NCBI RefSeq assembly: GCF_040938485.1
Contig: NW_027271421.1
Location: forward strand, 438,567-502,566
Direction: 5' to 3'
DNA: 64,000 bases
From: Diadema antillarum
Taxonomy: Eukaryota
The notes beneath the pieces are model-generated. The model saw only the letters and a list, made by a program, of their open reading frames with translations, was not told the DNA's origin and did not search any database. Each line of letters begins with the position of its first letter. The first letter of the stretch is position 1. Made by a program: the position numbers and the translations under genes. This document shows positions 10,403-57,297 of the stretch, piece by piece.

Positions 10403-10480
10403 CTTCAATGTTTTCATAGATCCATTTAAGGGCTGCTGCTTGGTCGAGCATACCAACATTTCCCCGAGCTGAGTCATCCT
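10403..10480 (-). CDS. P2 exon 4 (EDDSARGNVGMLDQAAALKWIYENIE)
   Basis: Acceptor tttccag|, donor g|gtaaga, 78 nt, phase 1 to 1. Confidence 0.75.
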
Positions 10481-11189
10481 CTGGAAATAAAAATGCATTT
10501 CATTGTTTGTTATACACAAAAACAAACAAACAAACACACAAACAAAAAATACAACCCCCCCCAAAAAAAAAAAACAATACCCAGAACAAAAAAAAAAACA
10601 AAACAAAACAAAATAACAACAGCGACAAAAAAAAAAGATAACAAACAACAACTACCACATTGCCTCAATCAGTTGTCTTCGTTTTCCTAGTCTCCTAGTT
10701 TTAGTATAAAAGAACGAGAAGTGAAAATCACATGTCTGTAATCACAGAATTCTACAGATTGCCTATCGCTTAGGAATAATGTCTGGCAACTTCAGAAACA
10801 GTAATGAGCAATGTCCCTACTAACTCCACGGTCCTCTGAATGACGTTACTGAATACGAAATAAGCTACCAAACAATGATTAGTGGGAAAAATCTTCAGGA
10901 AGTGACAAATTGTATAGACGTCAGAAAAAGACATACTATCGAGTATTAAAGTCATCGCTTTACCATAGAGATAACAGTTCATCTTACTGAAATTGGGGTT
11001 ACAGGTTTTAGTTCCCATTCAGGGGCGTCACCAGCTTTTTTTCAAGGGGGGTGCGTTTTGACACTAAATGTTTACGAGATTTTTTTGGACAGACATTTGG
11101 AATATAGGAAGCTCTCAATCCCTAGACTTTTACTGTTTTTTGAGGGAAACCAAGCGGGGAAAGGGTTAGGGTATACCCCCTATAAATGG

Positions 11190-13410
11190 ATTATGGAATG
11201 ACGGTGTGAAACGACAAATTACTGGCAGCGATATCAGGAGAATGGCATGACGAATACATGCGAGCGAGGGGAGCGAGCGAGCTTGAAAATTTTGACATTT
11301 TACAGTCCAAAAACTGCCGTTTGTAGCCATATTTTTTTGCTTTGTAAATTAAGGGGGGCGCACCGGGCGCAACTGCTGGCAATTACTGGCAGCAACATCA
11401 GGTAAACTGCATAGTAATTAAATGCGAGCGAGCAAAGAGAGCGAGTTTGGAAATTTTGACATTTTACAGTCCCAAAACTGCCATTTGGAGCCATATTTTT
11501 TCGCTTTGGAAATAAAGGAGGCGTGGGGGGGGGGGGGAGGGTCGCAACGGGCGCAACTGCCGGTAATTACTGGTAGCAACATCAGGAGAATTGCATAACA
11601 ATTAAATGCGATCGAGGTAAGCGAGCGAGCTTGAAAATTTTGACATTACAGTCCAAAAACTGCCGTTTGTAGCCATATCTATTTGCTTTGGAAATTAAGG
11701 GGGCGCACCGGGCGCAACTGCTGGCAATTACTGGCAGCAACATCAGGTGAATGGCATAGCAATTAAATGCGAGCGAGCGAAGAGAGCGAGCTTGAAAATT
11801 TTTGACATTTTACAGTCCAAAAACTGCCGTTTGGAGCCATATTTCTTCGCTTTGGAAATAAAGGAGGGGTGGGGGCGCAACGGGGCGCAACTGTCGGTAA
11901 TTACTGGCAGCAACATCAGGAGAATTGCATAACAATTAAATGCGAGCGAGCGAGCGAGCGAGCTTGAAAATTTTGACATTTTACAGTCCAAAAACTGCCA
12001 TTTGTAGCCATATTTTTTTTTTTGCTTTGGAAATTAAGGGGGGGGGGCGCACCGGGCGCAACTGCTGGCAATTTTACTGGCAGCAACATCAGGTGAATGG
12101 CATAACAATTAAATGCGAGCGAGCGAAGAGAGCGAGCTTGAAAATTTTGACATTTTACAATCTAAAAACTGCCTTTTGGAGCCATATTTTTTCGCTTTGG
12201 AAATAAAGGAGGGGGGGGGGGGGCGCACCGGGCGCAACTGCCGGCAATTACAGGCAGCAACATCAGGAGAATTGCGTAACAATTAAATGCGAGCGAGCGA
12301 GCGAGCGAGCTTGAAAATGTTGACATTTTACAGTAAAAAACAAACAAACTGCCGTTTGTAGCTATATTTCTTCGCTTTAGAATTAAAGGGGGCGCATCGG
12401 GCGCAATTGCTGGCAAATACTGGCAGCAATATCAAGAGAGCATAATGATTACATTCGAGCGAGCGGAATGAGCGAGCTTGAAAATTTTGCATTTTACAGT
12501 CCAAAAACTGCCGTTCTTAGCGATATTTTTCGCTTTGGAAATTAAGGGGGAGGCGCAACGGGCGAAACTGCAGGCAAGTACTGGCAGCAACATCAGAAGA
12601 ATGGCATAAAGATTAAATGCGAGCGAGCGAAGAGAGCGAGCTTGAAAATTTTACATTTTACAGTCTAAAAACTGCCGTTCTTAGCCATATTTTTTCGCTT
12701 TGGAAATTAAGGGGGGGGGGGGCGCACCGGGCGCAACTGCAGGCAATTACTGGCAGCAACATCAGAAGAATGGCATAAAGATTAAATGCGAGCGAACGGA
12801 GCGAGCGAGCTTGAAAATTGTGACATTTTACATTCCCCAAACTGCCGTTTGTAGCTATATTTTTCGCTTTGGAAATTAAGGGGGGGGGGCGCACCAGGCG
12901 CAACTGCCGGCAATTACTGGCAGCAACATCAGAAGAATGGCATAAAGATTGAATGCGAGTGAGTGAAGAGAGCGAGCTTGAAAATTTTACATTTTACAGT
13001 CTAAAAACTGCCGTTCTTAGCCATATTTTTTCGCTTTGGAAATTAAGGGGGGGGGGGGGCGCACCGGGCGCAACTGCAGGCAATTACTGGCAGCAACATC
13101 AGAAGAATGGCATACAGATTAAATGCGAGCGAACGGAGCGAGCGAGCTTGAAAATTTTGACATTTTACAATCCCCAAACTGCCGTTTGTAGCTTCAAGTA
13201 TATTTTTTCGCTTTGGAAATTAAGGGGGCGCACCAGGCGCAACTGCCGGCAATTACTGGCAGCAACTCCAGGAGAATGGCATTACGACTAAATGCAAGCG
13301 AGAGGAGCGAGCAAGCTTGAAAATTTGACATTATTTACTGTCCACAAACTGCCGTTTGCAGCTATTTTTTTTTCGCTTTGAAAATTAAAGGGGGGGGGGA
13401 CGCCCGGTGC
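11190..13410. repeat. ~169-bp satellite, about 13 tandem copies
   Basis: The motif gcgagcgagcttgaaaattttgacattttacagtccaaaaactgccgtttgtagccatatttt...gcgcaccgggcgcaactgctggcaattactggcagcaacatcagg recurs with periods of 163-180 bp. Copies differ in poly-G and (GAGC)n length. Confidence 0.85.
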
Positions 13411-14555
13411 GCCCCACCCCCTGGATCCGCCACTGGTAGTCAAGGGTGTGGGTTTATGTTCATGACTGGGGGAGGTATGACCAGCGAGGTGGCGTCGAAG
13501 TGACCAAGCGTTGAAAGGATGTCCAAAATCTGCACTTTAGAGCATCCCCTAAACTAATTGTGCGTGTTTGTTTGTGTGTGTGTATATTATATACATGGAA
13601 AAGTTAGGAATTAACCCAGGTCAAGTCTTTTTATTGGCAATGCAAGACATTTATATATATATATATATATAGACTAGTATGTAAAGCAACACTGCAAAAT
13701 CAATGATCTAGCTTTGATATAACGAAGCGTAAGGTACAAAGGTGTACATTCTACATCACATTGCGCAACATTGTAGCAGGGAGGTGGAAGCCCCTGATTG
13801 TAGCGACTCTTCGTTCGGATGTACTGAGTACACTGCGCATATCCTGCTTATATGCAGAATGCCAACCAGGAATCACAATCTTTTGTCGGGTCCGGGCTTT
13901 TTGAACAATGTTTCACACTATATACCTATTTAATTATGGTTAAAAGAAATCATAGAAAGATATCTTATTTCTGGATCACCCTTTCATTCAAAAGCAGTTT
14001 ACTAACACTTGAACTACTATTTCGGGAAATCCTTTTTTTTTTTACCAGCGGATTGGGAGGGGCCGCACCCCCCCCCCCCTCTCCGTAGTTACGCCATTGC
14101 TTTTGGGTGAAATAATTGGACAGATTTCTTGAATTCTAACAAAAAAGCAAGAAAAGCTTTTCATCGCGGGAATTATGATTATGTGGGGTGGGGCAAATGG
14201 TGCGCTTGCCTTCCAATATTTTCATGGGGGCAACATTTTTGTTTTCTTTCAAAAGCAAGAAAATCTTCTCATTTCGGGAATTATTGATTACGGGGGGGGG
14301 GCAATTAATATGCTTGCCCCTCCATTTCTTTTTATTTTTTTTAATGAGGCTAAGGCTCGCTCTTGGGCTGGCAATATGGATTGGTCAGAAGTAACGTACA
14401 TAGACCCTACATACTTGTAAGTAGCACACGTACATGCAAACGTGTATAAGTGCTCCGTATCGTACGGATGTACAGTATGGTCGATAAATAGTAAACACTG
14501 TAGAATACTAATAGATAAGTATAAAATCAGTGCTGCCAGAACCAGGGGTGCGAAT

Positions 14556-14558
<3 letters not shown>

Positions 14559-14606
<48 letters not shown>
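14559..14606. repeat. (GT)n microsatellite inside the TIR element
   Basis: Read directly. Confidence 0.8.
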
Positions 14607-14610
<4 letters not shown>

Positions 14611-14798
14611 GGTGCAAAATATAAAAAAAAAGTAGAAAAGAATAATTATTTAGCGTCCGGCGTTGAGGTCGCTCGCAGACTATTTTTTTTTTTTTTTTTT
14701 TTTTTTTTAAAGGATCTGAAGGGGGGTGCGTTCGCACCCAACGCACCCCCCCTGGTGACGCCCATGCCATTCAATTGGCATGATATATTCATACTAAC

Positions 14799-14958
14799 CA
14801 GTGGAAAACTGTCCAAAGATCGCTAGTCTGTAGTTGATTGCTACAACAATGACGTCACCTACAACAGCCAATGGGACGCCGTAATGGTCATAGATCATTG
14901 CTGAGCCAGAGTTGAACGACCCCCCGTGAATCCACACCATAACTGCCATGCCTGAAGT
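14799..14958 (-). CDS. P2 exon 3 ([53 protein letters not shown])
   Basis: Anchored to ORF 14794..14991. Acceptor ctcaag|ACT, donor g|gttagt, 160 nt, phase 0 to 1. Confidence 0.8.
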
Positions 14959-15562: not shown

Positions 15563-15766
15563 CTGTAAGCATGATTAGCATCTTTCAGTCAGAAACATTA
15601 AAAACACACATAATCAATATTAGATATGTACAAATATTACTCCTCTGAACTTCGATATAACGTCCAATTTTCCTGTTATATACAGGTTGTACATGTCTTA
15701 TTCGAGTCATAAATCATTGATGATAGCAATCTTGATGTACGGCAGTCGGTCGCAGGCAAGATAATA

Positions 15767-16091
15767 GGGAGCTTTAGATTTTAGACGCGCGGACGTTCAA
15801 AGGAAAAAAAAAAACATGATCTGAGCTTGCGCAGTAGCGCGCGTAAAGTCAATCTATTTTTAGCTTGCGTCGCCTGAGTTGTTTACTACGCGTAGTGGGC
15901 TATTTTCACGTCCGCACAGTTTGCGACGTAGAGAGCTTTTTCATGCACTGATCATATGGGGGCGTGATTTTATTTTTTATACGTTGCGTCCCAGCGTAAT
16001 CTAAAGCTACTTTTCCACATGACGCAGGGAGAGGAGAACGTTCAGGGCAACCGTCGGCTCAAACGTCCGCGCGTCAAAATCTAAAGCTCCC
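15767..16091. mobile_element. MITE (long-TIR family, copy 1)
   Basis: 35-bp TIRs GGGAGCTTTAGATTTTAGACGCGCGGACGTTCAAAGG / revcomp, with a flanking TA dinucleotide on each side. A second copy is at 24447-24612. It lies in P2 intron 1. Confidence 0.55.
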
Positions 16092-17388
16092 TAATATGTG
16101 CACTGTGCTGGAATTAAGTTGTCGTTCAAAGTTTAATCAAATGGATTGTAAAAGAGTCCTGCCATACGCCATCAAGGGACATGACACCAAACGAAACAAG
16201 TGTATAGATAATTGGTCTAAATTGATGCGGATTGTGTTGTTTTAGCCCATGGGCTCTATTTCTCGGAAACGTAACAACAAAATAATTTGTCATGACCATG
16301 TCGTATTGACATTATTGATGTTCCTCTAGTTTGCCAGTAAACACAATTAACTTGCACAATTAACCAGAACTTACGACATGACCATGTAGGAAGAAAAAAA
16401 AAATGTCGCAAGACTTGACCTTAAAACATTTAAGTAGTGATATTATGTCCTTTGGCGTGGACATATCCCTTGTTCATATTTTCTCGCGAGGTAGATTTTC
16501 TTATCGAGCATTACTGACAGGATATAGGATGAATTCCGGTCAGCCATGTCAATCCCCAAATCCAAATGAAAGTAAACCCTGGTTTGGTCTACTACTTGAG
16601 TGAAAATAATAAGGATGTGATACAGTGGACTGCCTGTCCTCGGGACAGGCAGTTTTTTTTTTTTTTTCGTTATATCGAAATTTCGTTACAACCGACCAAA
16701 CAAACAATAAACACACACACACAGGGGATAATGTTACGGCATGAATTTTTACTTCGTGTTCAACTGAATTTCGTTATAACAGTGTTTATTATATCCGGAG
16801 TGCGCTATAGTCACATGACCAAAACGAAACGGTGAATTCAAGATGCCATGCCTTTTCATATTCGACAACCAAGCTATTTCAACTTTATCGATATCATGTG
16901 AACTACGTATTTCTTAAAGTGACTACCCTTTGTCTATGTCCTTAACATCAAGTATTTTACAGAAAGGCAATCGACGAGAGAATGTCGAAGCCGTGAATTC
17001 TAGGACTCAATCCTGTGGAAAGAGGATTTTCTTTTGTCTCTAAATGTACCATAGTAACTGCATAGTCGCTTCTTAACTATAATTATTGTTGTTGTAATCC
17101 CTGCTGCATAGACATGCATACTGTATATTATATCATTAATTCCCTTTTATATCGTTGTTTATGCAAGTCAAACGACTCCGTGTTGAATTTACTTTGTATA
17201 TTCCCTATATGTTCATGATTATGTAACTTATGTGTATTGATTTGCAGAAAATAAAGTATCTATCAATATCAATATCAATATCAACCTTACAAAACGTCAA
17301 AAAGAGTAGCTATAATTGTTCCTTTGTTGTCAAACAAAATGATTCGCGCCGTGATCGAGGAAAGAGAAACTCGAATATAAGGCCTTAC

Positions 17389-21270: not shown

Positions 21271-21540
21271 CTCGTTATTCCGAAGGTTCGTTATTCCGAA
21301 GGCTCTTTATTCCTAAGATTCGTTATTCCGAAGGTTCATTGTTCCGAATTTCATTTTCGGATTAACCAATCTTCGGAATAACGAACCTTCGGAATAACGC
21401 CACAAATTTTCGGATTAACGAACCCTTTTTCATTTTCGGATTAACGAACCTGTAGGTATACGGAATTTGCGTGTTTCGGATTAACGACCCTTCGGAATAA
21501 TGAACCTTCGGAATGGCGAACCTTCGGAATAACGAACAGC
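21271..21540. repeat. Inverted tandem array of a 14-bp unit (CGTTATTCCGAAGG x4 facing CCTTCGGAATAACG x~8)
   Basis: Read directly. The two arms are reverse complements and could form a long hairpin. It lies in P3 intron 8. Confidence 0.8.
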
Positions 21541-24001: not shown

Positions 24002-24446
24002 CTGCACAGAGACAAGAAAGACGAAAACTCCACGATAATGTTTCTAATCGAAAACTCTGAGCCATACTCACATAGTCTCTGATAAGTAAATATCAAGCTA
24101 TGGAAAAAAAAAGGGTTTACTCTTCTAACATGTCGAAACGCTAAATACTTCCAAAAGTAAGCATAATATTTTTATGTGAGTGACAGAATTCATCATATTT
24201 AATACTTCCCATAGACAGTAGTGTGCAGTGCGCAAATAAGCCATTATAGCATGGATTTATCAGCATGGTAGTATTTTTCAAAGACGTCTCAATAGTCAAC
24301 GCATAATTCTCAAACCGTTTGCATTTTGAAGTTGTGCTTTTTTTTATTCTTCATGCATTCGAACGTTATCAAGTATCAAACTTTACGATGTAGTGTAATG
24401 GGCTATCACTTGGCTGCGTAGAACAAATGTTTCATTTGATAGAATA

Positions 24447-24612
24447 GGGAGCTTTAGATTTTAGACGCGCGGACGTTCAAAGGGAAAAAAAACATGTTCT
24501 GAGCGTGCGCAGAAGCGCTGGTCAAATTGACGCACGCTTCTGCGCACGCTCAGAACATGTTTTTTTTTTTTTTTCCCTCTGAACGTCCGCGCGTCTAAAA
24601 TCTAAAGCTCCC
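24447..24612. mobile_element. MITE (long-TIR family, copy 2; nearly a pure hairpin)
   Basis: Same 35-bp TIRs as 15767-16091. The interior is itself palindromic. A TA dinucleotide flanks each side. It lies in P3 intron 5. Confidence 0.55.
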
Positions 24613-24823
24613 TAATAATGAATACAGGAAGGCATGGGATAAGTACACAGAAAAAACACCAATTAGAAATATACGTTCCTCAGAAGAAAAGAAAAGAGAA
24701 AGGAAAATTTTGAAGAAGTAAGGAAAAAATAACTTGGGAAGACGCTATGGTTATAGAGTCAACATCTCAAACAGAACAAGTTCAAGTCATGGAATAGATG
24801 CCCTTATCCTATCTACCATATAC

Positions 24824-28949: not shown

Positions 28950-31037
28950 TTTCCCCTCGTGGTGTTATATCGACTGTAACAGCTCAAAATATAGCGTGTA
29001 AGTCGCTGGAAACTATCAAAGAGATCTGTCGGGAAAAGGAGCAAGCATTAAAATTTGTAACAACTGACAGATTTCCCCTCTTTGAAGCCATGCACTATCA
29101 ATTGAATGTCAATGTTTGTCCTGCTTTCCCTTTCCCGCGCTGTCTCAGAAAAAAAAAAAATCACCATTATTGACATACAAGGCTGGATAGCAAGATATGC
29201 AAGTCATGCAATGTTTTGTTGACAGTATTCATCACGGGACTCTTGAAAGAAATATTATCGGGGTCTTCGAGGTTATCAGAGCTACTTAAAACTCCTTACA
29301 CCTTTATTAAATTGAAATTATAACCGTCAACAGGGTCGTTGCGTATGGCAAAGCGGGAAGGTGTGGTATTGCCAGTTGCAGAGATAGGTATTAATCAATT
29401 TTACACCATTATTTTCTGTGTGATATGCTTTCTGTCATAATAAACAAGAATGTTGAATTAATTTCTAGTCGCACTTTATTGCCTTGATGACTCGATGAGC
29501 AACGCAGATTTGTTTGGTGTTTAAATAAATATCTATGTTGAATGTAGATTTTATATGCTTACCTCACTTGTCTTTAAATGCAACAGTCATGACAGTAATC
29601 TGGTTTAGATATGGAGAGGAGTTGACCAACCTAAGTCAAGAGCAGGGATGAGACTGCAAGACATCATGCGAAATACAATTCACTCTAATTTCATTCATTA
29701 TCACTCAATGTTAATTTTAATTGTTTGTCAAATTGCGACTAATTTCATTGATGAAAATGTGAAAGGTGCAAAACTTTGCAAATAATCAAAGATTCCCAAC
29801 GAGTCCGATCCCTGACCACCCGGCCTTCTCGTACATTTGAACTCGACATCATGAACTCGGGGCCATGACAGTGTCAGCGTGTGTCACTGTGTGCATAGCG
29901 TGTCGTGTTTTGTGTAGAATGAATACCGTGTATCAACGCGTGACGTTCATCGCCGAAAAACGATTGTCAACGTTCAGAATAAAGGCTATAAGAAATGCGT
30001 CCTCCTCCATGTTATAGACGGAGATGTTTTCCTGTTTAAAAGAACGTGTACTGATTTTTTTTTTTGTAACTTGGCCTTTTGAAATCAAGCTTTGTTTGAT
30101 GGTGAACCCCTGTACCTTTCCCCAAGTCAATTGTGTATAGTATGATGTATAATGTCTTGCATACATTATATACATTAATGTAGGGCCTAACATCTAAAAT
30201 AGCATATATCATTTTAGAATAAATTATTTTGGGTACTATCCATATGCAATTTCTTATCAAATGTTATAGATATCACCGAGATGGTAGACCAACGGTACAA
30301 TGTGTGCAGATCATCCATGAATTACAAAAAAAAAAACAAGTTGAAAAGACAAACACAGTCTTGAAGGAAGTCAGATGCTATACCATTTACCATTTAAAAA
30401 TATTGATGACTTCCAGATATTCGTGAAGTTGTGGCATCCATATTCATTAATTGTATATCATTTCATTTGAAAATATATTTGGATAAAGTTTAATCACAAA
30501 GTTGTGAAAAACAACATCAGTTTCCGTCACTTCTTCGCACATACGCAAATGCATACAAACATTAAAAACACGTGGGCAGAGATGCATGGGCATACGTAAT
30601 CACAACTTCAGTTTCCGTCACTTCTTCGCACATACGCAAATGCATACAAACATTAAAAACACGTGGGCAAAGATGCATGGGCATACGTAAAAAGTACAAT
30701 AAATGACAATCAAGATTTTTCCTTGTATCATGTAATCTGTATCACTACACTACAATGTCCATTACACAAGAAGAGCGGCAACAGGAAACGATCGAAGGTA
30801 GCGAGTCTACATCTTCTACTACTGCTGGTGATGATAAGTGTAACTGTAGTAGAAGTCAGTTACGCATCCAAAATCCACCGTAAGAAAATATATAAATCTT
30901 TTCAATTTTCTGCAAGTGCCTATTGTGTTTTTAAATTTGCAGGACGGGATGCACATGTAAAGTTGTCAGTTTCCCGCTGCGTTTTACTAAATGCAGTTGT
31001 AGTTTATAGCTGAAATTCTATATCGCGTAATCAATTC

Positions 31038-35983: not shown

Positions 35984-36992
35984 CATAGTAAAGCTGGTAT
36001 CTCACTGAGCAGCGAAAGTTTGCGAACGTAGCGAATTTGAGATTCGCCAACTTTTCTGACGAATGTTTGCGAAAAATCAAAGTTTGCTTCTGCCAAAGTT
36101 CGCTTTAGCGATGTTTAGCGACAATTAGCAACACTTCAGCGAATGTTTGCGAAAATGTTTGCGAAACACAGGTGGCGACCATTAGCGAATGTTAGCAAAT
36201 GTTAGCGACAATTTTACAAATGTTAGCGACAGTTTTGCAAATATTAGCAACTGTTTGCAAATCCTTTGCGACAATTTTGCGAATGTTCTTGGACCTAGAA
36301 AAGTACCAGGCGATTATGTATAGTCAGACCCATAAAACGAACGTAAAACCTTCCACTGAATTCAGATCTCTTGTGACAACCGTTCAAGATGAATGTCCAG
36401 TATATGGAAATACATTTCTGCCAAGAAGAGGCTCAATGTGTTGCTATCCTTGAAGAGCTGCTTTGTCAGGCTGCTGCTACAGCTATTGTGCAGCATAAGA
36501 GAAATAAAATAAAGAAAAACAAGAAAGGAAGAAGAAAAGAAAGACTGTTTGGGTCAGAGAGTGGTTGTTGCAGAGGACAGACTTCCAGCAATTACATGAT
36601 GGAGATGTCAAGAGCTTCAAGAACTTCCTTAGAGTGGAACCTTGTCTGTTTCAGAAGCTTTTATATAGGAACCATATGGTTACTTGTTCGCTAGCAGTGG
36701 CGAATCAAATAAAAATGTTTGCGACACCGTATTACGACCGCTTGCGAATTCTTACCAGTGTTTTGCGAATGTTTGCAACTGTTAGCGAAAATACAAATTC
36801 GCAAATGTTCGCAAAGAAATTTTGAACATGTTCAAAATTTCTTTGCGACAAGAAAAACTGTTTGCGACAATAAAAACCGTTTGCGAACTTTCTTGCGACT
36901 GTTAACGAGCCTTTTGCAGCCCTTTACGAACCCTGGCGAAATCCCAAATTCGCTACGTTCGCAAACGTTCGCCGCTCAGTGAGATACCCCCT
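35984..36992. mobile_element. Harbinger/PIF-like non-autonomous TIR element (~1 kb)
   Basis: About 50-bp TIRs: GGTATCTCACTGAGCAGCGAAAGTTTGCGAACGTAGCGAATTTG... / revcomp. The interior has GTTAGCGAC/GTTTGCGAA short repeats and a degenerate ORF with ...DGDVKSFKNFLRVEPCLFQKLL..., which resembles the N-terminal motif of Harbinger-type proteins. Direct repeat TAAAG flanks it at 35979-35983 and 36993-36997. It is absent at the orthologous site in P5 (57259-57285). It ends 33 bp from the P4 exon 7 donor. Confidence 0.5.
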
Positions 36993-39981: not shown

Positions 39982-42900
39982 ATGGGCCAGGACGAGAGAC
40001 TTCCCTGCGCAGCTCTTCCTCACCTTAATGCAATTCACACTCAAGTCACAATATCACCCATTTTCATCCTAATCATTCCAAAGATGATACCACTAAGCAT
40101 AGGTAGCATAGTATGGAATATGCGCACTCTGTTGGACCGTGCCGGGACTGAAAGACCTGAGAGAAGGACCGCACTTATTGCTGGAGAACTAGCAAGGTAC
40201 AGGGTACAGATTGCCGCCCTTAGCGAAACACGCCTTGCTGTTGGAGGTCAACTGTCATATACACGCCGGTTACACATTCTCCTGGATCGGTCGCAAACAA
40301 GACGAACGTCATGAAGTAGGAGTCGGATTTGCCATTATGGGGAACCCAAACCCAAGGAGCAATGTGGATTGAGTGAGAGCAGCAACATTAGTAGAACAAA
40401 TCAGTGAAAGTTCGAGGAAAATCGGACAGTCGATGAAAGAGTTATGAATTTTTAAAGTGTTGGTGTTGGAACCGCTGGATGAGGAGACTGCTAGAGGTTA
40501 TGACATTGAGTGGACAACAATAGAAAGAAAATATAAAGGGAATTCAATAACAATTCGTTTTTCATGGAAATGACACATTCCATCAACTTGATACTGATGT
40601 TAAGGGTAGCAATTATTCCCTCTGCTTTCTGAAAGCGGTTAGTCATGTGTTCTTTTATTATGGTAGAAAAGTGATTTTTTTTTTTTTGGGGGGGGGGTGG
40701 AATTCCCTTTACATTTTCTTTACATTGTGTTCATGGCGATGTGTTCTACTAATATTAGTGCTTTCTCTCAATCGTTATTGCTCTTTGGGTTCCCTTTAAA
40801 TCCAACTGAGTCAACAAGCCGGCTGTGCCCCCAAGGGTCTATCAATCATCGTCTAATGACTGTCCGACTTCCATTACCAAGAAAGCGGTATGCCACAATG
40901 ACCAGCGCCTACGCAACCACGATGACCAGCCCTGATGGTGTCAAGGAAAGATTCTATGAGTACCTGCAAGCGACTATTCCCGCTGTGTCCAGATTAGATA
41001 AACTCATCACCCTTGGTGACTTCAAAGCTAGGGTCAGCACCGACTATGCATCATGAAAAGGAGTCCCATATAAGGAAAATGGTCTGGGAAATGCAACAGC
41101 ATAATGGCTTATTGCTGCTGGAAACTTGCGCTGCACACCAGCTGCTCATTACCAATACAGTCTTTCGTCTACCGAACCGTTATAAGACGACATGGATGCA
41201 TCCTCGCTCTGAGCACTGGCACTCGCTGGATTACCTTATCGTTAAACAAAGGGACGGGCAAGACGTTATAGTCACAAAAGGGCTTTTTACACTTGTAAAT
41301 TTTTGCTTAGCCCCGGACCAACGGTGGAGCGAAGGGGGACCTTAGCCCCACCGTTGGTACGGGACTATCCTTAGCCCACTTTCTGTGTACACTCATTTTT
41401 GCCAAAGTGGGCTAGCCCCACCGATAGTACGGTACTATCTGGCCCTGCAAAATAGCAGGGGTTAGCACCGCAATTGCGGTGCCAAGCAAGTGAGTGTAAA
41501 CAGAACGAAAAAATAATCCTGGGCTAAGCGACGGAGACGAAGTCCGACCCTCACTGACCAATCAAAAACGAGGTAATCAAGTGCTGCTGATGCGTGCGTG
41601 TACGTGTACAGTACACAGCGTAATTATGAATATTCATGTGGTTTGGAAAGTCCGGGGCTAAGAAATTCGAGTGTAAAAAGGTCAGTTTTCTCCTTAGCCC
41701 CGGGCAAGAGATAGGACGGGACTAATTGGCGAGTGTAAAAAGCTGAAAAAATTGGTACGGGACTAACGATAGTCCTGGGTCAGAGAAAGTCCGGGGTTAA
41801 GAAACACAAGTGTAAAAAGCCCTAAAAGCCATGTGCGGTGCAGCAAAGTGCTGGACAGATCACCGTCTGTTGATCTCAAAGCTCAGTATCAGGATTCAAC
41901 CACGTAGAGGTTTTCAGGGAAAGATGGCATTGAAACGTTAGATGTTAAAGTTGGAGAGAGATCAGGTACAGCAGTCACTCATTGAAGAAATCGACAGCAA
42001 GTTGCAACAACAAAGTTTCAGCTCACGGGATGTTGAGTCCGACTGGATTCTCTTTCGCAGCTCTGTCTATGCTGCCGCCTCTGAGACGGTGGGTACGTCC
42101 CATCACTTAACTAGGACTGGTTCAATGACAAGAGCGAACGCATTCAATCTTTGCTCGAAGAGAAGCATCGCCTTCCGAGCACACCTCAACGACCCGACAT
42201 CAGCTTCCAAGAAAACTGTTTTTTACAACATCAGGAGAAGCGTACAGCTGGAACTATGGCAAATGCAGGATGCATGGCTAGCATAAAGCTGATACGATAC
42301 AGTCTTATGCTGATCAATTTCAATTTCAATTTCAATTTTATTTCCATTTCCATTGAATAAACAGGGAAAATTATATACAATACATTCATCGACATGAAAA
42401 ACATAATACAGACAACACTGGATCACTTCAAACAAAATTTGTAGATCTACTTATTTTGATGTCCCATGATATGCACTGGACTTGTACTGCCACTGCCTAG
42501 TAATTTCTATATATTTTATCTCCTATGGCGACCAGGGATGCCATCTCATATCGCTTTTTATATTGGAAAAAATATCAACTACCGTGTATTATGTATATGG
42601 ACCAATTTGTTTGGGCTCGTCTCTCCTCCTCAGTGCAGCAGATGGAAACGTACTGATCACAGACACGAAGAAGATTGTTGAACGCTTGACAGAACACTTC
42701 AAAATGTCCTCAACGGTCAATCTGCCATCAGCGAGTAAACAATCACAAGCCTGCTCCAAGTTCCAACCAATCACTCTCTTGCCGATATCCCCACAGAAGC
42801 CGAAGTGGAAGCAGCAGTAAAACATATTGTCCTGTTGAAAAGAACCTGGCGCTGACTCTATCCCTGTAGAAATCTACGCCTCTGGTCGCCATAACCTTGA

Positions 42901-44400
42901 CAAAGCTCACCGAGCTATTCCAGTCCGTCTGGAACGAAGAGAAAATCCCACAGGAACCCTGGATGCTTCTGTCGTCCATTTGTACAAGTACAAAGGAAAT
43001 CGAGCTTGCGACAACTACCGGGGAGATCTTTGCCAGAATCTTGCTGAACCGCCTGATCGACCACTTAGAGGAAGGTTTACAACCTGAAAGTTAATGCGCG
43101 CTCAGACAGAGTCGCAGCACAGTAACACAATGGATATGATTTTCGCAGCACGTCAACTCCAGGAGATATACTAGGAGCAGAATGTAGGTATCGACACCAC
43201 CTTTGTAGACCTGACTAAGGCTTTTGACACCGTATGACTCTGGACTCTTCAATGATCATGGCCAAATTTGACTGCCCTGCAACACTCATCTCACTGGTAA
43301 AACAGTTTCATGCAAGCTAACGTGCAGGATAGCGGTGAACGCTCAGAGCCCTTCCCTGTCACAAACGGCGTGAAACTTGCCCCAACCGTCTTAAGCAAGA
43401 AGTTCTCAGCAATGTTGATATGCCTTTCGGGCGGGAGATATCGTTGTCGATTTCAGATTTAGAACTGATGGAAAGCTGTTTAACCTACGGATACTGCGGA
43501 CAAAATCAAAATTCCGGGAGGATATCGCCTGTGACTTTCTCTTCGTAGATGACAGCTCCCTGTATCTCAGGGCGAAAATCCAATTGAATATGCTAGTACT
43601 CAGTCTGACATGCAAGAAATCATTGACCAATTCGCCAACGCCTGTATCGACTGAAGTGATGCATCAGCCAGCTCCTACAATTCCCTACACAGAGCCAACC
43701 ATCATGATTAATGGCGAGAAGCTGAAAGTGGCAGACAAATGTGTTTACCTTGGCAGCACAAAGCCAGCTCGGCTTTCAGCAGACTCATAGACGGTGTGTG
43801 GGAAAGAAGAGGAAAACCTTCAAACCAAAGTATAGCTCTGTCGCGCAATAGTCATGCCCTCTGTACTGTATGCCTGCCAAACATGGATAGTGTATAGCCG
43901 GTATGCCAGGCAGCTGAACGCCTTCCACATAAGATGCCTCCAAAACTTGCTGCACGCGAAATGGCAAGACAACGTGCCAGATACCAAGATACTTCAGAGA
44001 GCCCATCAGATGGAGAGTATATTCATGAGATGCTCTAAAGCGCTCCCAACTCAGGCGGGGCATGTACTTCGAGTGTCCAACGAACATTTACCAAAGTGAC
44101 TGCTCTATGGTGAACTAATGGAAGGCAAGCGCTCTCACGGAGGTCAGAGGAAGCGCTACAAGGGCACATTAAAAGCTTGGATGAAATGCTGCACCATCAA
44201 TCCTGACACATGTGAAGCAGCGGCGCTAGACCGATCTGCCTGGCGATCTGTGGTCACCTCTGGCCCTTATTAGACTACGAAGTGAGACGTGTCGAGGAGC
44301 AGGAAAAGGAACGGCAGCGACGAAAATTAGCAGAGCGACCTCTCAGCCTGGCCTACCTCCACGGCATCAGATTTTTTTTTTTTTTTCAGAGCGAGGATCG
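39982..44400 (+). mobile_element. Degenerate non-LTR retrotransposon (LINE, L2/CR1-clade-like), antisense in P4 intron 5
   Basis: Frameshifted ORF pieces: an APE-endonuclease N-terminus (IVWNMRTLLD...RPERRTALIAGELARYRVQIAALSETR, ...LITLGDFKARVSTDYAS), RT motifs (FVDLTKAFDTV..., ...ADD...), and the tail ...HIRCLQNLLHAKWQDNVPDTKILQ...HVLRVSNEHLPK. Multiple stops and frameshifts. The ends are approximate. Confidence 0.65.
41280..41821. mobile_element. MITE nested inside the P4 LINE copy (542 bp)
   Basis: Perfect 16-bp TIRs GGGCTTTTTACACTTG ... CAAGTGTAAAAAGCCC, with internal GTGTAAAAAG and TAGCCCC subrepeats. The flanks are acaaaag|...|taaaag. The P5 LINE copy is uninterrupted at this site (gtcgccaaagccatgtgtggtgcagcag, around 59330). 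Confidence 0.6.
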
Positions 44401-45901: not shown

Positions 45902-47194
45902 TGGATAGATCCCATAAAGATTGACTGGCAGACTTTATATAAAGAGAAAGGAAATGGAATGAGAGAGATATATATAGAGAGATATGTAACTTATTATCAA
46001 AGTGATGAGACTCAATACTAAAAAATGGCTGAATTCAGATATGTGTTCTGAAGTCGTTAACTCATGCTGAAACTATATAATGTATTACGTTCTTTACTCC
46101 ATGTGGTTTGTTATGCTCAAAACCACTATTCCATTTTGTATAAACAGACAATAAAGCTGACGAAGACCTGAGGTCGAAAGCTTCTACCTGTACTACCATC
46201 CGGCATCGTGCGACGTCTCTTGTCTTCATTAACTATATTACATATATGGTTAGCATTGTGTACATATATTTCTGTTCAGTCTTACAGTCCTATGGAAATC
46301 AATATACATTTTTAATAATAATAATAATATTATTATTATTACCATTATTATTATCATTATCATTATCAATATTATTATTCATAACATTTATATAGCACAT
46401 TATCACATGTAATGTCTCTAAGCGCTACGGGAAAAAATAGAAAAGGAAGAAGAAGAAAGGAAGAAAGAAGAAGAAGGTATACGGATTCAGAGACGGTAAG
46501 ACATGAGTAATAGTCATAGAACTACTCAATGAAAAATACGGTTTTAACATGGATTTAAATTTGTCTACTGAGTATGTTTGTTTCAAACATTTAGGTAAGC
46601 AGTTCCAGGGTTGAGGCAATGCTGACTGAAATTATCTTAAACCATAGGATTGTGTATTGAAAGGAGGAGGTATTAAAAGTGATTTGTTGTTAGACCGCAA
46701 GTTCCGGGAGGGTAGGTATTCAGTTATCAACTGTTGAAGATAAACCGGTGCAATATTTCGCAAACAGTTGAAAGTTAACAAGAGAATCTTAAAGTTAATG
46801 CGGTAGTTCTCTCAGTAGTGGGGTAAGCGACTCACGTGAACGACGTTTAGCAAGAAGCCTGGCAGCTGAATTTTGAACTCTCTGCAGTTTGTTGATTTGC
46901 GCATCAGGTAGACCGTACGAGAGACTATTGCAAAAGTCAATGCGAGACATAACCAGTGCCTGAACGAGTCTTTGGCTTGTCTTTTAAGTCAGAAATTGGC
47001 AGATGCTGCCAATTTTGTGTAGGGCAAATGAGGCTGATCTGCACACACTTTTCACATGAGCCTTCAGTTCACACGAGTCTTCAAACTGACTTTAACTACT
47101 GACAATATTTGAGATATTAACTGTCAACACTAAATCTTGCAGTATCCTGCAACCTGCATTTGCTATGCATCTGCATTTACTATGATTACTTAAA

Positions 47195-47550
47195 GGGGAA
47201 GGCTAGTAACTGATCAGTGGGAATCAGTGGAAATGCTGGGAGATGATTGTTCCAATCCTTATGGGATTCATTCAAGAGTTCATTGTATATCTATTGTTGT
47301 GTGAAAATGATTTGCTTCAGAATGGTCTCATATTCAAGTAATGTGCAGTTTAATGCTTCCAGGTTAGCGTCCCTGGTCAGTGACGGAGCATTAATCTGCA
47401 CATTACTTGAATATGAGACCGTTCTGAAGCAAATCATTTTCACACAACAATAGATATACAATGAACTCTTGAATGAATCCCATAAGGATTGGAACAATCA
47501 TTTCCCAGCATCTCCACTGATTCCCACTGATCAGTTACTAGCCATCCCCT
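47195..47550. mobile_element. Foldback (near-perfect palindrome) element, ~356 bp
   Basis: The arms are reverse complements. ORF-track entries 47247..47453(+) and 47291..47497(-) differ only near the palindrome centre. Termini are GGGGAAGGCTAGTAACTGATCAGTGG / revcomp. TTAAA flanks it at 47190-47194 and 47551-47555. It is absent at the orthologous site of P5 (gattattaaaacaaatgg, around 63800). Confidence 0.6.
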
Positions 47551-47645
47551 TTAAACAAATGGTTGATACATGAAATCACGGAATTAATGTCATATCTATC
47601 CCAATATCAGTTACCTATTTTGCTCTGATACCTGGGTATTATTAC

Positions 47646-52095: not shown

Positions 52096-52815
52096 AGACA
52101 GTACGACAACGACAACATCAGACATAAACCTATATTTCATATGATGTTTTCACCTGCCCGCATGTACATAAAACTCATTAACTGTCTCATTTAAAGATGC
52201 ACAATATGATACTCATTGATGGACTGATCATTGCGGGGTGGGAAGAATGGTAAGGAAAAGAATCCCGAGCAACACGAAAAGACAGCAGTTGTCATGGTAA
52301 TGATTGATCTTAATGAGGATCACGATCCACTAGCAAAGTGACCAGTGATCTTGGCGTCTGATCGCAATAGTCAACATCAGAGTGAAATCTTGCTCTGGCA
52401 CTCGCCATCAGGAACTCTAGTTTTTCTTGTAAAGTTCTAAATTCCCCCGATGCGTTTTAATAAAGTCAATCAATGCAGTTGAAGTTTAAGGTTGTAAACC
52501 ATAGCGTTCTCATTTCTCACTGTTAATGATTCATTCATTATTCATTCACGCATTGTATAGTCATCAGAATACGATAGTGAATACAAAAAATAAGTCATGA
52601 CGTCAATAGACAATATCACCCATTCTCTTCCGCTCTACTTTGTAATCATCTGATGACTTCTTTTCCACCAAAGCAAGTTTCCAATCACGCATTTATCATA
52701 ATACGGCCGAAAGAGATATGATATACTCTCTCTGCGTTGACTAGTAAGCGAACTTCTCTATATGTAACAACGTTACATTCTTTGTATCATCACAAAGACT
52801 GATATGGTGACCTGG

Positions 52816-52951
52816 GGGGCATTTCATGAAGCATTTTGGTCGGATATTTTTCTGACAAACTGTTCCAAGCTTCTGAAATCCTTGCATTTGATTGGCTGAA
52901 AGCAAATTTGTCTGACAACTTTGTCGGACAAAATGCTTCATGAAATGCCCC
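52816..52951. mobile_element. Hairpin MITE (~136 bp) specific to the P5-side duplication unit
   Basis: Inverted termini GGGGGGCATTTCATGAAGCATTTTG-TCGGAC / revcomp. A flanking CCTGG / CCAGG pair corresponds to a single CCAGG at the orthologous P4-unit site (around 31725). Confidence 0.45.
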
Positions 52952-53171
52952 CCAGGTGTATATTGTCTTGTATATCATTTTTTCCAGTCTTGAAAAATTA
53001 ATGCAGGTTGTAATTGTATGACGTTCTGTGAACCATATAATGTAAGAAAGTTTAATTCGTTTTGTCGATGAATGTTCACATATCCTTTTTTTCTCTCTAA
53101 AAGGTGTTTACGTTTTAGCCATTCATTCGACTATTTCAGCAAACTTATGATACTAATACAGTTCAATACAA

Positions 53172-56154: not shown

Positions 56155-57297
56155 CTTGAAAAAAAAAAAAAACATAAACAATATTACGCTGTTCTTACCA
56201 ACACAAAACAACTGATAAGAAAGAATACTTAAATGAGTTTAGAAAGTCTCTAACTGAATAAAAGTTGAAATATTGTGTAGTTGAATTCACTCAACATGCC
56301 AATATCCTCAACTGTCTCTCTAAAAGTGTCTAAAGTAAACACAACAAACAAACGGACAAACAAACATCGACATTAATTGTTGTCCACTTAAGGATTAGGT
56401 TGCATCTGCAATTTTATTTTGTAAATTATGTATTGATGTGTCGCCAATAACAAATAATGCGCGTGTTAAACCACGGAACCAATTCGCACGAAAGCATATA
56501 ATTTTATGAAATAATAGCAATTATTACAAACTACATGATTAGGTTCTGTGAGAGAAATGCTTCCAATTATGGGCATGAGGTAAGCCTACTTATGTTGCTG
56601 TGTGACTATAATGATGACCGATCACAGAAGGTATGTCGAGCTACTTAGGTAGGTGATAGAGCGTGTGTGTGTGTGTGGGGGGGGGGGTCCTCCCAGGCCT
56701 TTTCGCCATAAAAACTCCAAAAGGGCATATTTTTGGTGTACATATTCTTTTTAGTGTTCCTCACAAATGTAAGTGAAACATTGTGCAATCAAAATATTTT
56801 CTAAAGTATTCTGTTGTTTCTTTAATTTCTAACGTATTTCCTTGTCTGTCGACTTTTTGTTTTTCATTGTTTTTCGATGATCTTTGTCGGTGACACTGCT
56901 GCGAGGGTGAAAATATGTCACTGACTGAATATCGACAAAAAAGAAAAACAAAAGGAAAAATAAACATTTTCAAATGAAATTTTACAGAATGTTAATTTAC
57001 ATTGAAATTGTACATGGATTCACGTTTTTGAGCAAGTTAGGTCTGACATGTATGTAGAGCCTACATAATATCGTTACGCGTAATTTCAAAACCGCTCGCC
57101 CAGGCGGCGCAAATTTGATCTCAAAAGGTGCGAGAGACTGGAAAGTAAAAGAGTAGTGAAACATCGCGAAGATAGTTGTTTCTTTCTTCTTCTTTTTTCG
57201 ATGGTGACATGTCGCGTGAAATGTCGAAGGGGGCTCCCAGCAACCCCCCCCCCCCCTCGATTTAGTAAAGGTTAAGGGGACGGCTGGTAATCCATAC

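What the first reader, a model, noticed from the sequence alone, without database searches (positions are those of the whole stretch)
11021..14766. P2 intron 3 inflated by a TIR-bounded element whose interior is a 169-bp satellite array
P3 and P4 have a 0.4-0.5 kb intron 3. P2's intron 3 is 4.3 kb because of a 3.75-kb element. Its termini are inverted: AGGGGCGTCACCAG... and ...CTGGTGACGCCCATG, with the GGGGGGTGCGTT subterminal motif mirrored. A 6-bp direct repeat CCATTC flanks it. Inside are about 13 copies of a 169-bp satellite, then a G/C-homopolymer-rich region with a (GT)24 run and a 36-nt poly-T. DNA transposons that capture or generate satellites are a proposed route for satellite dispersal. 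This would be a complete example sitting in a coding gene's intron.
Basis: seen in the sequence. Interest (0 to 1): 0.6.

Follow-up and report, generated by a model that had tools for sequence, protein, structure and literature searches.

The report
Satellite-carrying transposon in an intron
A 3.7-kb piece of mobile-element-like DNA, bounded by short inverted repeats and carrying 13 copies of a 169-bp repeat, sits in an intron of a sea-urchin esterase gene; this is a well-known kind of structure, not a new one.

Summary
Window 11020-14766 is bounded by a 15-bp inverted repeat (CAGGGGCGTCACCAG / CATGGGCGTCACCAG, 12-bp perfect core). A mirrored 12-mer (GGGGGGTGCGTT) lies just inside each end, and a 7-bp direct repeat (CCATTCA) flanks it, readable as a 5-7 bp target-site duplication. 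No simulated sequence showed a mirrored second motif. Inside are 13 monomers of about 169 bp with a dimeric higher-order pattern, (TG)25 and T26 (not T36).

The host is an echinoid carboxylesterase paralog on the minus strand. Its intron 3 is 4,318 bp, against about 0.42-0.5 kb in paralogs and in a related contig.

An exhaustive protein search with a satellite reading frame found one other copy, Tara metagenome contig L087. It has the same 41-bp leader, the same array phase and a matching first monomer. Upstream it has an unrelated 266-bp tandem repeat instead of the inverted-repeat arm. In the window the leader plus array is flanked by ACCCCCT repeats.

Best reading: a roughly 1.5-kb non-autonomous inverted-repeat transposon backbone with hAT-like ends, carrying an acquired satellite module. 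No second copy of the termini could be found, because the host genome is not searchable here. Satellite arrays inside transposons are well documented, so this is a new member of a known kind.

The parts
11015..11021 (.). Left copy of the flanking direct repeat CCATTCA. Read as a 5-bp duplication it is CCATT, 11015-11019.
11020..11034 (+). 5' terminal inverted repeat CAGGGGCGTCACCAG (perfect core 11023-11034)
   Evidence: 2 matches in the window, 0.10 expected
11046..11057 (+). 5' subterminal motif GGGGGGTGCGTT
11035..11181 (+). Left arm of the backbone. It ends in ...GGGTATACCCCCT, whose last 7 bases (ACCCCCT, 11175-11181) are the left copy of the repeat flanking the satellite module.
   Evidence: unrelated to the L087 sequence upstream of the leader
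11182..11216 (+). Leader of the satellite module. Together with CCCCCT it is 41/41 identical to L087 610-650.
11217..13396 (+). 13 monomers of about 169 bp. Dimeric higher-order pattern: (A B)x3, A', X, (C D)x2, then a degenerate last unit. Mean pairwise identity 83%, range 71-97%.
13387..13422 (+). Palindrome at the array end: G10-A-CGCCCGGTGCG-CCCCACCCCC(T). It holds an inverted copy of the monomer's G-run/CGCACCGGGCG motif. The right copy of ACCCCCT is at 13416-13422.
   Evidence: (I14-I20)
13423..14720 (+). Right arm of the backbone, non-coding. Contains a 2 x 108-bp direct repeat (14143-14318), G/C homopolymers, GGGGTGCG motifs at 14064(-) and 14545(+), (TG)25 at 14556-14606 and T26 at 14683-14708.
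14721..14751 (+). Subterminal hairpin GGGGGGTGCGTT-CGCACCC-AACGCACCCCCC (two inverted copies of the subterminal motif)
14752..14766 (-). 3' terminal inverted repeat. The + strand reads CTGGTGACGCCCATG, the reverse complement of CATGGGCGTCACCAG.
14767..14773 (.). Right copy of the flanking direct repeat CCATTCA. It also forms the left half of a 7-bp-stem palindrome, 14763-14782.
14799..14958 (-). Exon 3 of carboxylesterase paralog P2. The splice-donor GT is at 14798-14797, 32 nt from the element.
10403..10480 (-). Exon 4 of P2. Intron 3 is 10481-14798.

Best explanation
A single insertion of a non-autonomous class II transposon with terminal inverted repeats (TIRs) lies in intron 3 of an echinoid carboxylesterase paralog, 32 nt downstream of the exon-3 splice donor.

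The backbone is about 1.5 kb (11020-11181 plus 13423-14766). It supplies what a transposase would recognise: 15-bp TIRs starting CAG/CAT, and repeated subterminal GGGG(GG)TGCG motifs, one near the 5' end and a hairpin pair near the 3' end. Integration duplicated 5-7 bp of target (CCATT[CA]).

The 2.2-kb interior module is a 35-41-bp leader, 13 monomers of 169 bp and a terminal G/C palindrome. It is a passenger. It most likely entered the backbone at a CCCCCT site, by template switching during gap repair or by microhomology-mediated integration of a repeat circle. It then continued to grow by dimer-wise unequal exchange.

Shown: the anatomy, its non-randomness, its absence from the paralogs, and the existence of the same module elsewhere in a different left context.

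Inferred: that the TIR unit transposed, its superfamily (hAT5/hAT6-like is only a lead), and how the module was acquired.
For: Termini:
- TIR core and mirrored 12-mer are each far above chance.
- The window's only non-tandem inverted pair with both a flanking direct repeat and a mirrored second motif; no simulation produced a mirrored second motif.
- GGGGTGCG occurs 5 times in the window, all inside the backbone arms; 0.34 expected.

Intron size:
- Intron 3 is 4,318 bp in P2, against about 0.43-0.5 kb in P3 and P4 and about 420 bp in related contig L085. It would be about 560 bp without the element.

Empty site:
- A related-species contig (L002) aligns weakly but collinearly across the predicted empty site (p about 0.04-0.09).

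Precedent in the same window:
- A 999-bp TIR element (35994-36992) with internal short tandem repeats has a clear paralogous empty site in P5 and a 5-bp duplication, TAAAG.

Module as a separate unit:
- L087 shares the leader (41/41), the array phase and a first monomer with the same private variants (93%). It has unrelated 266-bp repeats upstream.
- ACCCCCT flanks the module in the window.
- Higher-order structure of the array.

Compatibility with hAT:
- hAT families with 5-, 6- and 7-bp duplications exist (PMC12730594).
- The third base of hAT 5' termini is G (PMC1131882).
Against: - No second copy of the termini was found anywhere, so mobility is not demonstrated.
- The paralog introns do not align, and the cross-species empty-site alignment is only marginal.
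- The duplication length is ambiguous (5-7 bp), and the third base of the 3' end is T, not G.
- The only other satellite copy lacks the TIR arm within 650 bp upstream of its array.
- ACCCCCT is not rare in this C-run-rich DNA: 5 in the window against 2.9 expected.
- The monomer motif GGGGGCGCAC resembles the backbone motif. The array could therefore have been born inside the family rather than captured.
- A 7-bp-stem palindrome just outside the 3' arm fits a Helentron-type reading.
Confidence: 0.5

Rival explanations
1. Same TIR transposon, but the 169-bp array is native to the family. It was generated by amplification of internal element sequence, as in tandem-repeat-containing MITEs. L087 would then be a family variant whose left arm was replaced or interrupted by another tandem repeat.
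For: The monomer motif GGGGGCGCAC resembles the backbone motif GGGGGGTGCG. The palindrome at the array end loosely resembles the 3' hairpin plus TIR (scores 11-13 against a null 95th percentile of 12). Both copies share the same leader/array junction and phase, as in the clam and oyster elements (PMC3879986, PMC7492417).
Against: L087 has no TIR and no GGGGTGCG in the 650 bp upstream of its array, where the window has its TIR at 196 bp. The module is flanked by a 7-bp direct repeat. The similarities to the backbone are not significant.
Confidence: 0.2
2. Helentron-type non-autonomous rolling-circle element (HINE, like DINE-1 or Cg_HINE), read on the + strand. The 5' end is TT|CAG followed by a 12-bp subterminal inverted repeat. 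Central tandem repeats and microsatellites follow, then the 3' subterminal inverted repeat and the palindrome CATGCCA-TTCAAT-TGGCATG. The true end would be near the TT at 14788-89, with no target duplication.
For: A 12-bp subTIR lies 3 nt from a TT. The 3' subTIR is directly followed by a 7-bp-stem palindrome. Central repeats plus microsatellite are present. These are the hallmarks listed in PMC4067079 and PMC7492417. HINEs are the usual carriers of 160-170-bp arrays in marine invertebrates.
Against: A 7-bp direct repeat that is not T-rich abuts both arms; HINEs make no duplication and prefer oligo-T sites. There is no inverted repeat complementary to the subTIR in the left flank. The outer half of the palindrome (TCATGCCAATT) has a counterpart at the same distance from the donor in the element-free intron of related contig L002, which suggests host DNA. 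Three of the palindrome's stem pairs (CCA/TGG) lie wholly in flanking sequence. The mirrored 12-mers make the termini symmetric over about 40 bp, as in cut-and-paste elements.
Confidence: 0.1
3. Not one mobile unit. The structure is a local mosaic built in place by repeated insertions, tandem-repeat expansion and G/C-homopolymer-mediated rearrangement, and the inverted ends and flanking repeat are by-products.
For: No second copy of the termini has been seen. The interior is modular, with possible degenerate 3'-end-like modules at about 13397-13431 and 14053-14095. 12-mer inverted pairs as such are common.
Against: The joint occurrence of TIR, mirrored 12-mer and abutting 7-bp repeat was never seen in simulations. 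A backbone-specific motif is shared by both arms. The remaining intron is of normal length.
Confidence: 0.1

Closest known systems
Tandem-repeat-containing MITEs of bivalves (DTC84 of Donax trunculus, PMC3879986; pearl elements of oysters, named from my own knowledge)
   Same: A non-coding element with short inverted repeats at the ends. It has a central array of roughly 160-170-bp satellite-like repeats in one orientation, a microsatellite at one side and a fixed junction between flank and array.
   Different: This element is much larger: 13 repeats and 3.7 kb, against up to 5 repeats. It has a 1.3-kb unique right arm. The putative duplication is 5-7 bp, against AA in DTC84. Copy number is unknown. 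The array module also occurs next to unrelated sequence (L087).
HINE / Helentron non-autonomous elements (DINE-1, Cg_HINE; PMC4067079, PMC7492417)
   Same: 12-bp subterminal inverted repeats, central tandem repeats of satellite-like length, microsatellites, and a palindrome after the 3' repeat. They disperse short arrays into genes and introns.
   Different: A 7-bp direct repeat that is not T-rich flanks this element, whereas HINEs make none. There is no inverted repeat paired with the 5' subTIR. The termini are symmetric over about 40 bp. The palindrome is probably host sequence.
hAT superfamily, groups hAT5/hAT6/hAT7 (5-, 6- and 7-bp duplications; PMC12730594)
   Same: The 5' end CAGGG fits the hAT terminal pattern, with G as the third base (PMC1131882, Fig. 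S7 legend). Short TIRs with repeated subterminal motifs and a duplication of 5-7 bp also fit.
   Different: No transposase or autonomous partner is available. The 3' end reads CATGG. The assignment rests on about 5 bases and a duplication length, so it is a lead only.
Tetris foldback transposon of Drosophila virilis (PMC4079207) and sea-urchin TU foldback elements (from my own knowledge)
   Same: DNA transposons whose internal tandem repeats are linked to a satellite.
   Different: Those have long inverted arms built of the repeats themselves. Here the arms are 15 bp and the array is unidirectional.

Membership tests
Class II cut-and-paste TIR element (non-autonomous) | Terminal inverted repeats at both ends | tested here: met
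   15 bp with 14/15 matches and a 12-bp perfect core, plus mirrored 12-mers
Class II cut-and-paste TIR element (non-autonomous) | Target-site duplication directly flanking the TIRs | tested here: met
   CCATTCA at 11015-21 and 14767-73. Read as 5 bp it abuts a 15-bp TIR. Length is ambiguous, 5-7 bp.
Class II cut-and-paste TIR element (non-autonomous) | Several dispersed copies sharing the termini | tested here: inconclusive
   None in the window. The 82 metagenome hits were all chance matches. None in viral contigs; the termini pattern was not scanned against prokaryotic genome contigs. The host genome is not searchable.
Class II cut-and-paste TIR element (non-autonomous) | Empty site lacking the element | tested here: inconclusive
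   Paralog introns do not align. Related contig L002 aligns across the junction only weakly. Intron lengths are consistent with an insertion.
hAT (including hAT5/6/7) | 8-bp duplication (5, 6 or 7 bp in hAT5/6/7) | tested here: inconclusive
   No 8-bp repeat in register. A 5-7 bp repeat is present. hAT5/6/7 are defined in PMC12730594.
hAT (including hAT5/6/7) | Termini with conserved A at position 2 and G at positions 3 and 5 | tested here: inconclusive
   The 5' end CAGGG fits. The 3' end CATGG has T at position 3 (PMC1131882).
hAT (including hAT5/6/7) | hAT transposase in an autonomous partner | not testable with these tools
   No transposase reading frame in the window
Transib | 5-bp duplication | tested here: inconclusive
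Transib | 38-bp TIR beginning CAC with an A-rich nonamer at its inner end | tested here: not met
   The ends read CAG and CAT. Positions 31-39 are GGTGCGTTT and TGCGAACGC (definition from PMC1131882).
HINE / Helentron non-autonomous | 12-15-bp subTIRs, the 5' one 2-4 nt from the end | tested here: met
   12-bp core, 3 nt after the TT at 11018-19 (PMC4067079)
HINE / Helentron non-autonomous | 3' subTIR followed by a short palindrome near the 3' end | tested here: inconclusive
   A palindrome exists at 14763-14782. However, half of it matches the element-free intron of L002.
HINE / Helentron non-autonomous | No target duplication; insertion into TT or oligo-T | tested here: not met
   A 7-bp direct repeat, CCATTCA, abuts both arms, and the flanks are not T-rich
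HINE / Helentron non-autonomous | Inverted repeat complementary to the 5' subTIR in the left flank (DINE-1, Cg_HINE) | tested here: not met
   CTGGTGACGCCC occurs only at the 3' end
Tandem-repeat-containing MITE (DTC84 / pearl type) | Central array in a fixed phase next to a conserved flank | tested here: met
   Same 41-bp leader and same array start in the window and in L087
Tandem-repeat-containing MITE (DTC84 / pearl type) | High copy number and small size | not testable with these tools
   Only two copies of the module and one of the termini were seen. This element is 3.7 kb.
Foldback transposon (Tetris, TU) | Long inverted arms made of tandem repeats | tested here: not met
   All 13 monomers are in one orientation, and the arms are 15 bp
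Satellite DNA in the strict sense | Long arrays that are abundant in the genome | not testable with these tools
   13 copies here and at least 2.3 in L087. One homologous reading frame among 1.84 billion representative proteins.

The most novel reading that the evidence does not exclude
An undescribed echinoid DNA-transposon family makes 5-bp duplications and is hAT5-like or of an unplaced superfamily. It is possibly related to the 999-bp element at 35994-36992, which shares an AGGGG..TCAC..AG terminal pattern. The family picks up and spreads a self-contained satellite module (leader, 169-bp array and terminal palindrome) that itself integrates at CCCCCT sites. That would be two nested layers of mobility, giving a directly testable route for satellite seeding in sea-urchin genomes.
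Probability: 0.25. Interest if true: 0.5.

Novelty: new member of a known kind. Interest (0 to 1): 0.3.

Why it matters
If confirmed genome-wide, this would be a clean echinoderm example of a satellite-like array travelling inside a DNA transposon into a gene. The array module is also seen in a second, unrelated context, which is the kind of evidence needed to separate capture of a satellite from its birth inside a transposon. The phenomenon is already well documented in bivalves, insects and plants, so the value is as an additional, well-resolved case. The element lies 32 nt from a splice donor and could affect splicing of this esterase paralog; that was not tested.

Tried and rejected
Searches that found nothing useful:
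- Metagenome scan for TIR plus subterminal motif. It gave 82 hits, mostly on soil and other environmental-sample contigs, and none extended beyond the pattern.
- Satellite 22-mer in prokaryotic genome contigs and viral contigs, and the termini pattern in viral contigs: 0 hits.
- A concatenated six-frame pseudo-protein against the word-indexed protein database: nothing. The 8,000-candidate list was probably saturated by low-complexity words. The exhaustive HMMER search later succeeded.
- Literal sequence strings and run accessions in the paper library: nothing relevant.
- Rfam and tRNA scans: only a sub-threshold SCARNA7 hit on the TG run.

Comparisons that failed:
- Paralogous empty site: the introns of P3 and P4 do not align with P2.
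- Lytechinus pictus esterase locus (L086): only exons match, at 70-77%, with one short 46-bp match at 89%; no element or satellite match.
- Exact look-up of window reading frames: not in the collection, and the P0133 cluster has one member.

Similarities checked and not supported:
- Internal degenerate 3'-end modules at 13397-13431 and 14053-14095: scores no better than the null tail.
- Homology between the window's left arm and the 266-bp unit of L087, which MAFFT suggested: not significant (p about 0.5).

Families rejected:
- Transib, because CAC is required. Foldback, because long repeat arms are required.
Full report
**Context.** The window has 39% G+C and carries a tandem cluster of carboxylesterase (PF00135) paralogs on the minus strand. 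The best named homologs are echinoid proteins: Lytechinus pictus at 65%, then Diadema antillarum, L. variegatus and Strongylocentrotus purpuratus. The host is therefore a sea urchin. Its own proteins are not in the searchable collections. Exon 3 of paralog P2 is 14799-14958(-) and exon 4 is 10403-10480(-), so intron 3 is 10481-14798, or 4,318 bp. The equivalent intron is about 0.5 kb in P3 and about 0.43 kb in P4. It is about 420 bp in a related Tara metagenome contig that holds both exons (L085).

**Checking the observation.**
- GGGCGTCACCAG occurs exactly twice in 64 kb, inverted, at 11023 and 14752; 0.10 expected.
- With the outer three bases the arms read CAGGGGCGTCACCAG and CATGGGCGTCACCAG, 14 of 15 matching.
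- GGGGGGTGCGTT occurs three times (0.07 expected). One copy lies 11 nt inside the 5' arm. Two lie in inverted orientation directly inside the 3' arm and form a 12-bp-stem hairpin.
- The flanking direct repeat is 7 bp (CCATTCA). Because CA can belong either to the arm or to the repeat, the duplication is 5, 6 or 7 bp.
- TRF finds 12.9 copies of a 169-bp unit at 11217-13396. A 346-bp period fits better. My alignment of the 13 monomers shows 83% mean identity, higher at lag 2 than at lag 1. It also shows two dimeric blocks, m1-m7 and m9-m12, with m9 and m11 97% identical.
- (TG)25 is present. The T run is 26 nt, not 36.

**Is it more than chance?** Inverted 12-mers within 6 kb are common: 64 in the window and about 30 per Markov simulation. 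Apart from a tandem-array foldback at 21272-21537, this pair is the only one with both an abutting direct repeat and a second mirrored motif. None of 30 simulations produced a mirrored second motif. The 8-mer GGGGTGCG occurs five times in the window, all inside the element and all outside the array: 11048+, 14064-, 14545+, 14723+ and 14742-, against 0.34 expected. This ties the left 160 bp and the right 1.3 kb together as one backbone. The monomers carry a related but distinct motif, GGGGGCGCAC.

**Searching for other copies.**
- Nothing else in the window resembles any part of the element.
- The termini pattern gave only chance hits in metagenome contigs and none in viral contigs. The satellite 22-mer gave none in prokaryotic genome contigs or viral contigs.
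- Sequence strings are absent from the paper library.
- A word-indexed protein search with concatenated reading frames found nothing.
- The exhaustive HMMER search with the 112-residue reading frame of monomers m11-m12 found one strong hit: P0133, E = 6.6e-50, 81% identity. It is encoded on a 1,037-bp Tara metagenome scaffold, L087.

**What L087 shows.** L087 consists of three parts:
- 2.3 copies of a 266-bp tandem repeat;
- 41 bp identical to window 11176-11216;
- 2.3 monomers of the same satellite, 85-93% identical to the window's monomers, starting in the same phase.

Its first monomer matches the window's first monomer best (93%) and shares that monomer's private variants. The two arrays therefore descend from one ancestral leader plus array. 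Upstream of CCCCCT|ATAAATGG the two sequences are unrelated. L087 has 266-bp repeats where the window has its inverted-repeat arm, and it contains neither terminal motif. In the window the leader plus array is flanked by ACCCCCT at 11175-81 and 13416-22. The array ends in a G-run/C-run palindrome that holds an inverted copy of the monomer's CGCACCGGGCG motif.

**Interpretation.**
- *Layer 1.* This is a roughly 1.5-kb non-coding backbone with terminal inverted repeats and repeated subterminal motifs. It inserted 32 nt from the splice donor and has a 5-7-bp duplication, the standard signature of a cut-and-paste class II element. There is no transposase in the window, so it is non-autonomous.
- *Layer 2.* A 2.2-kb satellite module sits inside the backbone. 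Because the same module abuts unrelated DNA in L087 at the same CCCCCT junction, I consider acquisition more likely than birth in place. Acquisition could be by template switching during gap repair, or by microhomology-mediated integration of a repeat circle. This is inference, and the alternative is kept as the first rival.
- *After acquisition.* The dimeric pattern shows that the array kept growing by unequal exchange.

**Supporting context.** The same window holds a 999-bp element with inverted repeats and internal short tandem repeats (35994-36992) in a P4 intron. Its absence from the recently duplicated P5 gives a clean empty site and a 5-bp duplication, TAAAG. Elements with 5-bp duplications have therefore moved in this genome. 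A related-species contig (L002) aligns collinearly from the exon, through the first 28 nt of the intron, and across the predicted empty junction (GGGAACTA directly after it). The significance is marginal.

**The Helentron rival.** Read on the + strand, the element has a 12-bp subterminal inverted repeat 3 nt after a TT. It also has central repeats, microsatellites and a 7-bp-stem palindrome directly after the 3' repeat. These are HINE hallmarks (PMC4067079; PMC7492417). Four points count against it:
- the abutting 7-bp repeat is not T-rich;
- there is no inverted repeat paired with the 5' subterminal repeat;
- the symmetry extends over about 40 bp;
- the outer half of the palindrome appears in the element-free L002 intron.

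I give this rival 0.1.

**Superfamily.** Transib is excluded because its ends begin CAC and carry an A-rich nonamer (PMC1131882). The 5' CAGGG and the 5-7-bp duplication are compatible with hAT5, hAT6 or hAT7 (PMC12730594). With no transposase and a CAT at the other end, this is only a lead.

**Novelty.** Arrays of about 160-170-bp repeats inside non-autonomous DNA elements are well described:
- DTC84 in a clam (PMC3879986);
- Cg_HINE in oyster (PMC7492417);
- DINE-1 (PMC4067079);
- Tetris (PMC4079207);
- recent reviews (PMC12628747, PMC9659126).

This is a new member of that kind in an echinoid. The nested-module evidence is its most interesting feature. Mobility of the inverted-repeat unit remains unproven until the host genome is searched.

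Noticed in passing
window 35994-36992 (compare 57259-57275): A 999-bp element with 54-bp TIRs (91% complementary) and internal short tandem repeats sits in a P4 intron. It is absent from the P5 paralog, which gives a clean empty site (AGTAAAGGTTAA) and a 5-bp duplication, TAAAG. Its 3' end, ...GATACCCCCT, shares the 9-mer AGGGGGTAT with the module junction at 11173-11181. These are the only two occurrences in the window (0.18 expected).
   Followed up: partly
L087 4-615: A 266-bp tandem repeat (2.3 copies, 83% matches) with G-run/C-run palindromes (GTGGGAGGG...CCCTCCCAC) abuts the satellite leader. The last unit is cut exactly after CCCCCT. It is unrelated to anything in the window.
   Followed up: partly
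window 15764-16093 and 24445-24615: Two copies of a MITE family with long TIRs (GGGAGCTTTAGATTTTAGACGCGCGGACGTTCAAAGG...), both flanked by TA, which suggests the Tc1/mariner type. The second copy is an almost perfect 170-bp palindrome.
   Followed up: partly
window 21272-21537: Arrays of a 16-mer (TCGTTATTCCGAAGGT) facing arrays of its reverse complement, in a P3 intron. This foldback-like structure is reminiscent of sea-urchin TU elements (resemblance from my own knowledge).
   Followed up: no
window 47190-47554: Two 168-nt arms, 97% complementary and 29 nt apart, form a large hairpin element next to exon 4 of P4.
   Followed up: no
window 52810-52957: A MITE of about 150 bp with TIRs of about 30 bp (ACCTGGGGGGCATTTCATGAAGCATTTTG...).
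   Followed up: no
window 58913-61289 (homologous to about 40855-43652): Decayed non-LTR retrotransposon reading frames (endonuclease-like and reverse-transcriptase-like) lie in introns of both P5 and P4. These two paralogs share 77-94% intron identity, so they are a recent duplication.
   Followed up: no
window 14143-14318: Two copies of a roughly 108-bp unit (75% identical over 68 nt) lie inside the element's right arm. Each ends in a G-run next to a short GCAA...TTGCC inverted repeat.
   Followed up: no
window 30511-30690: A 91-bp unit repeated twice at 97% identity.
   Followed up: no
window 14469-14617: A sub-threshold Rfam hit to SCARNA7 (24 bits against a gathering score of 65) overlaps the TG run. 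I take it to be a low-complexity artefact.
   Followed up: yes
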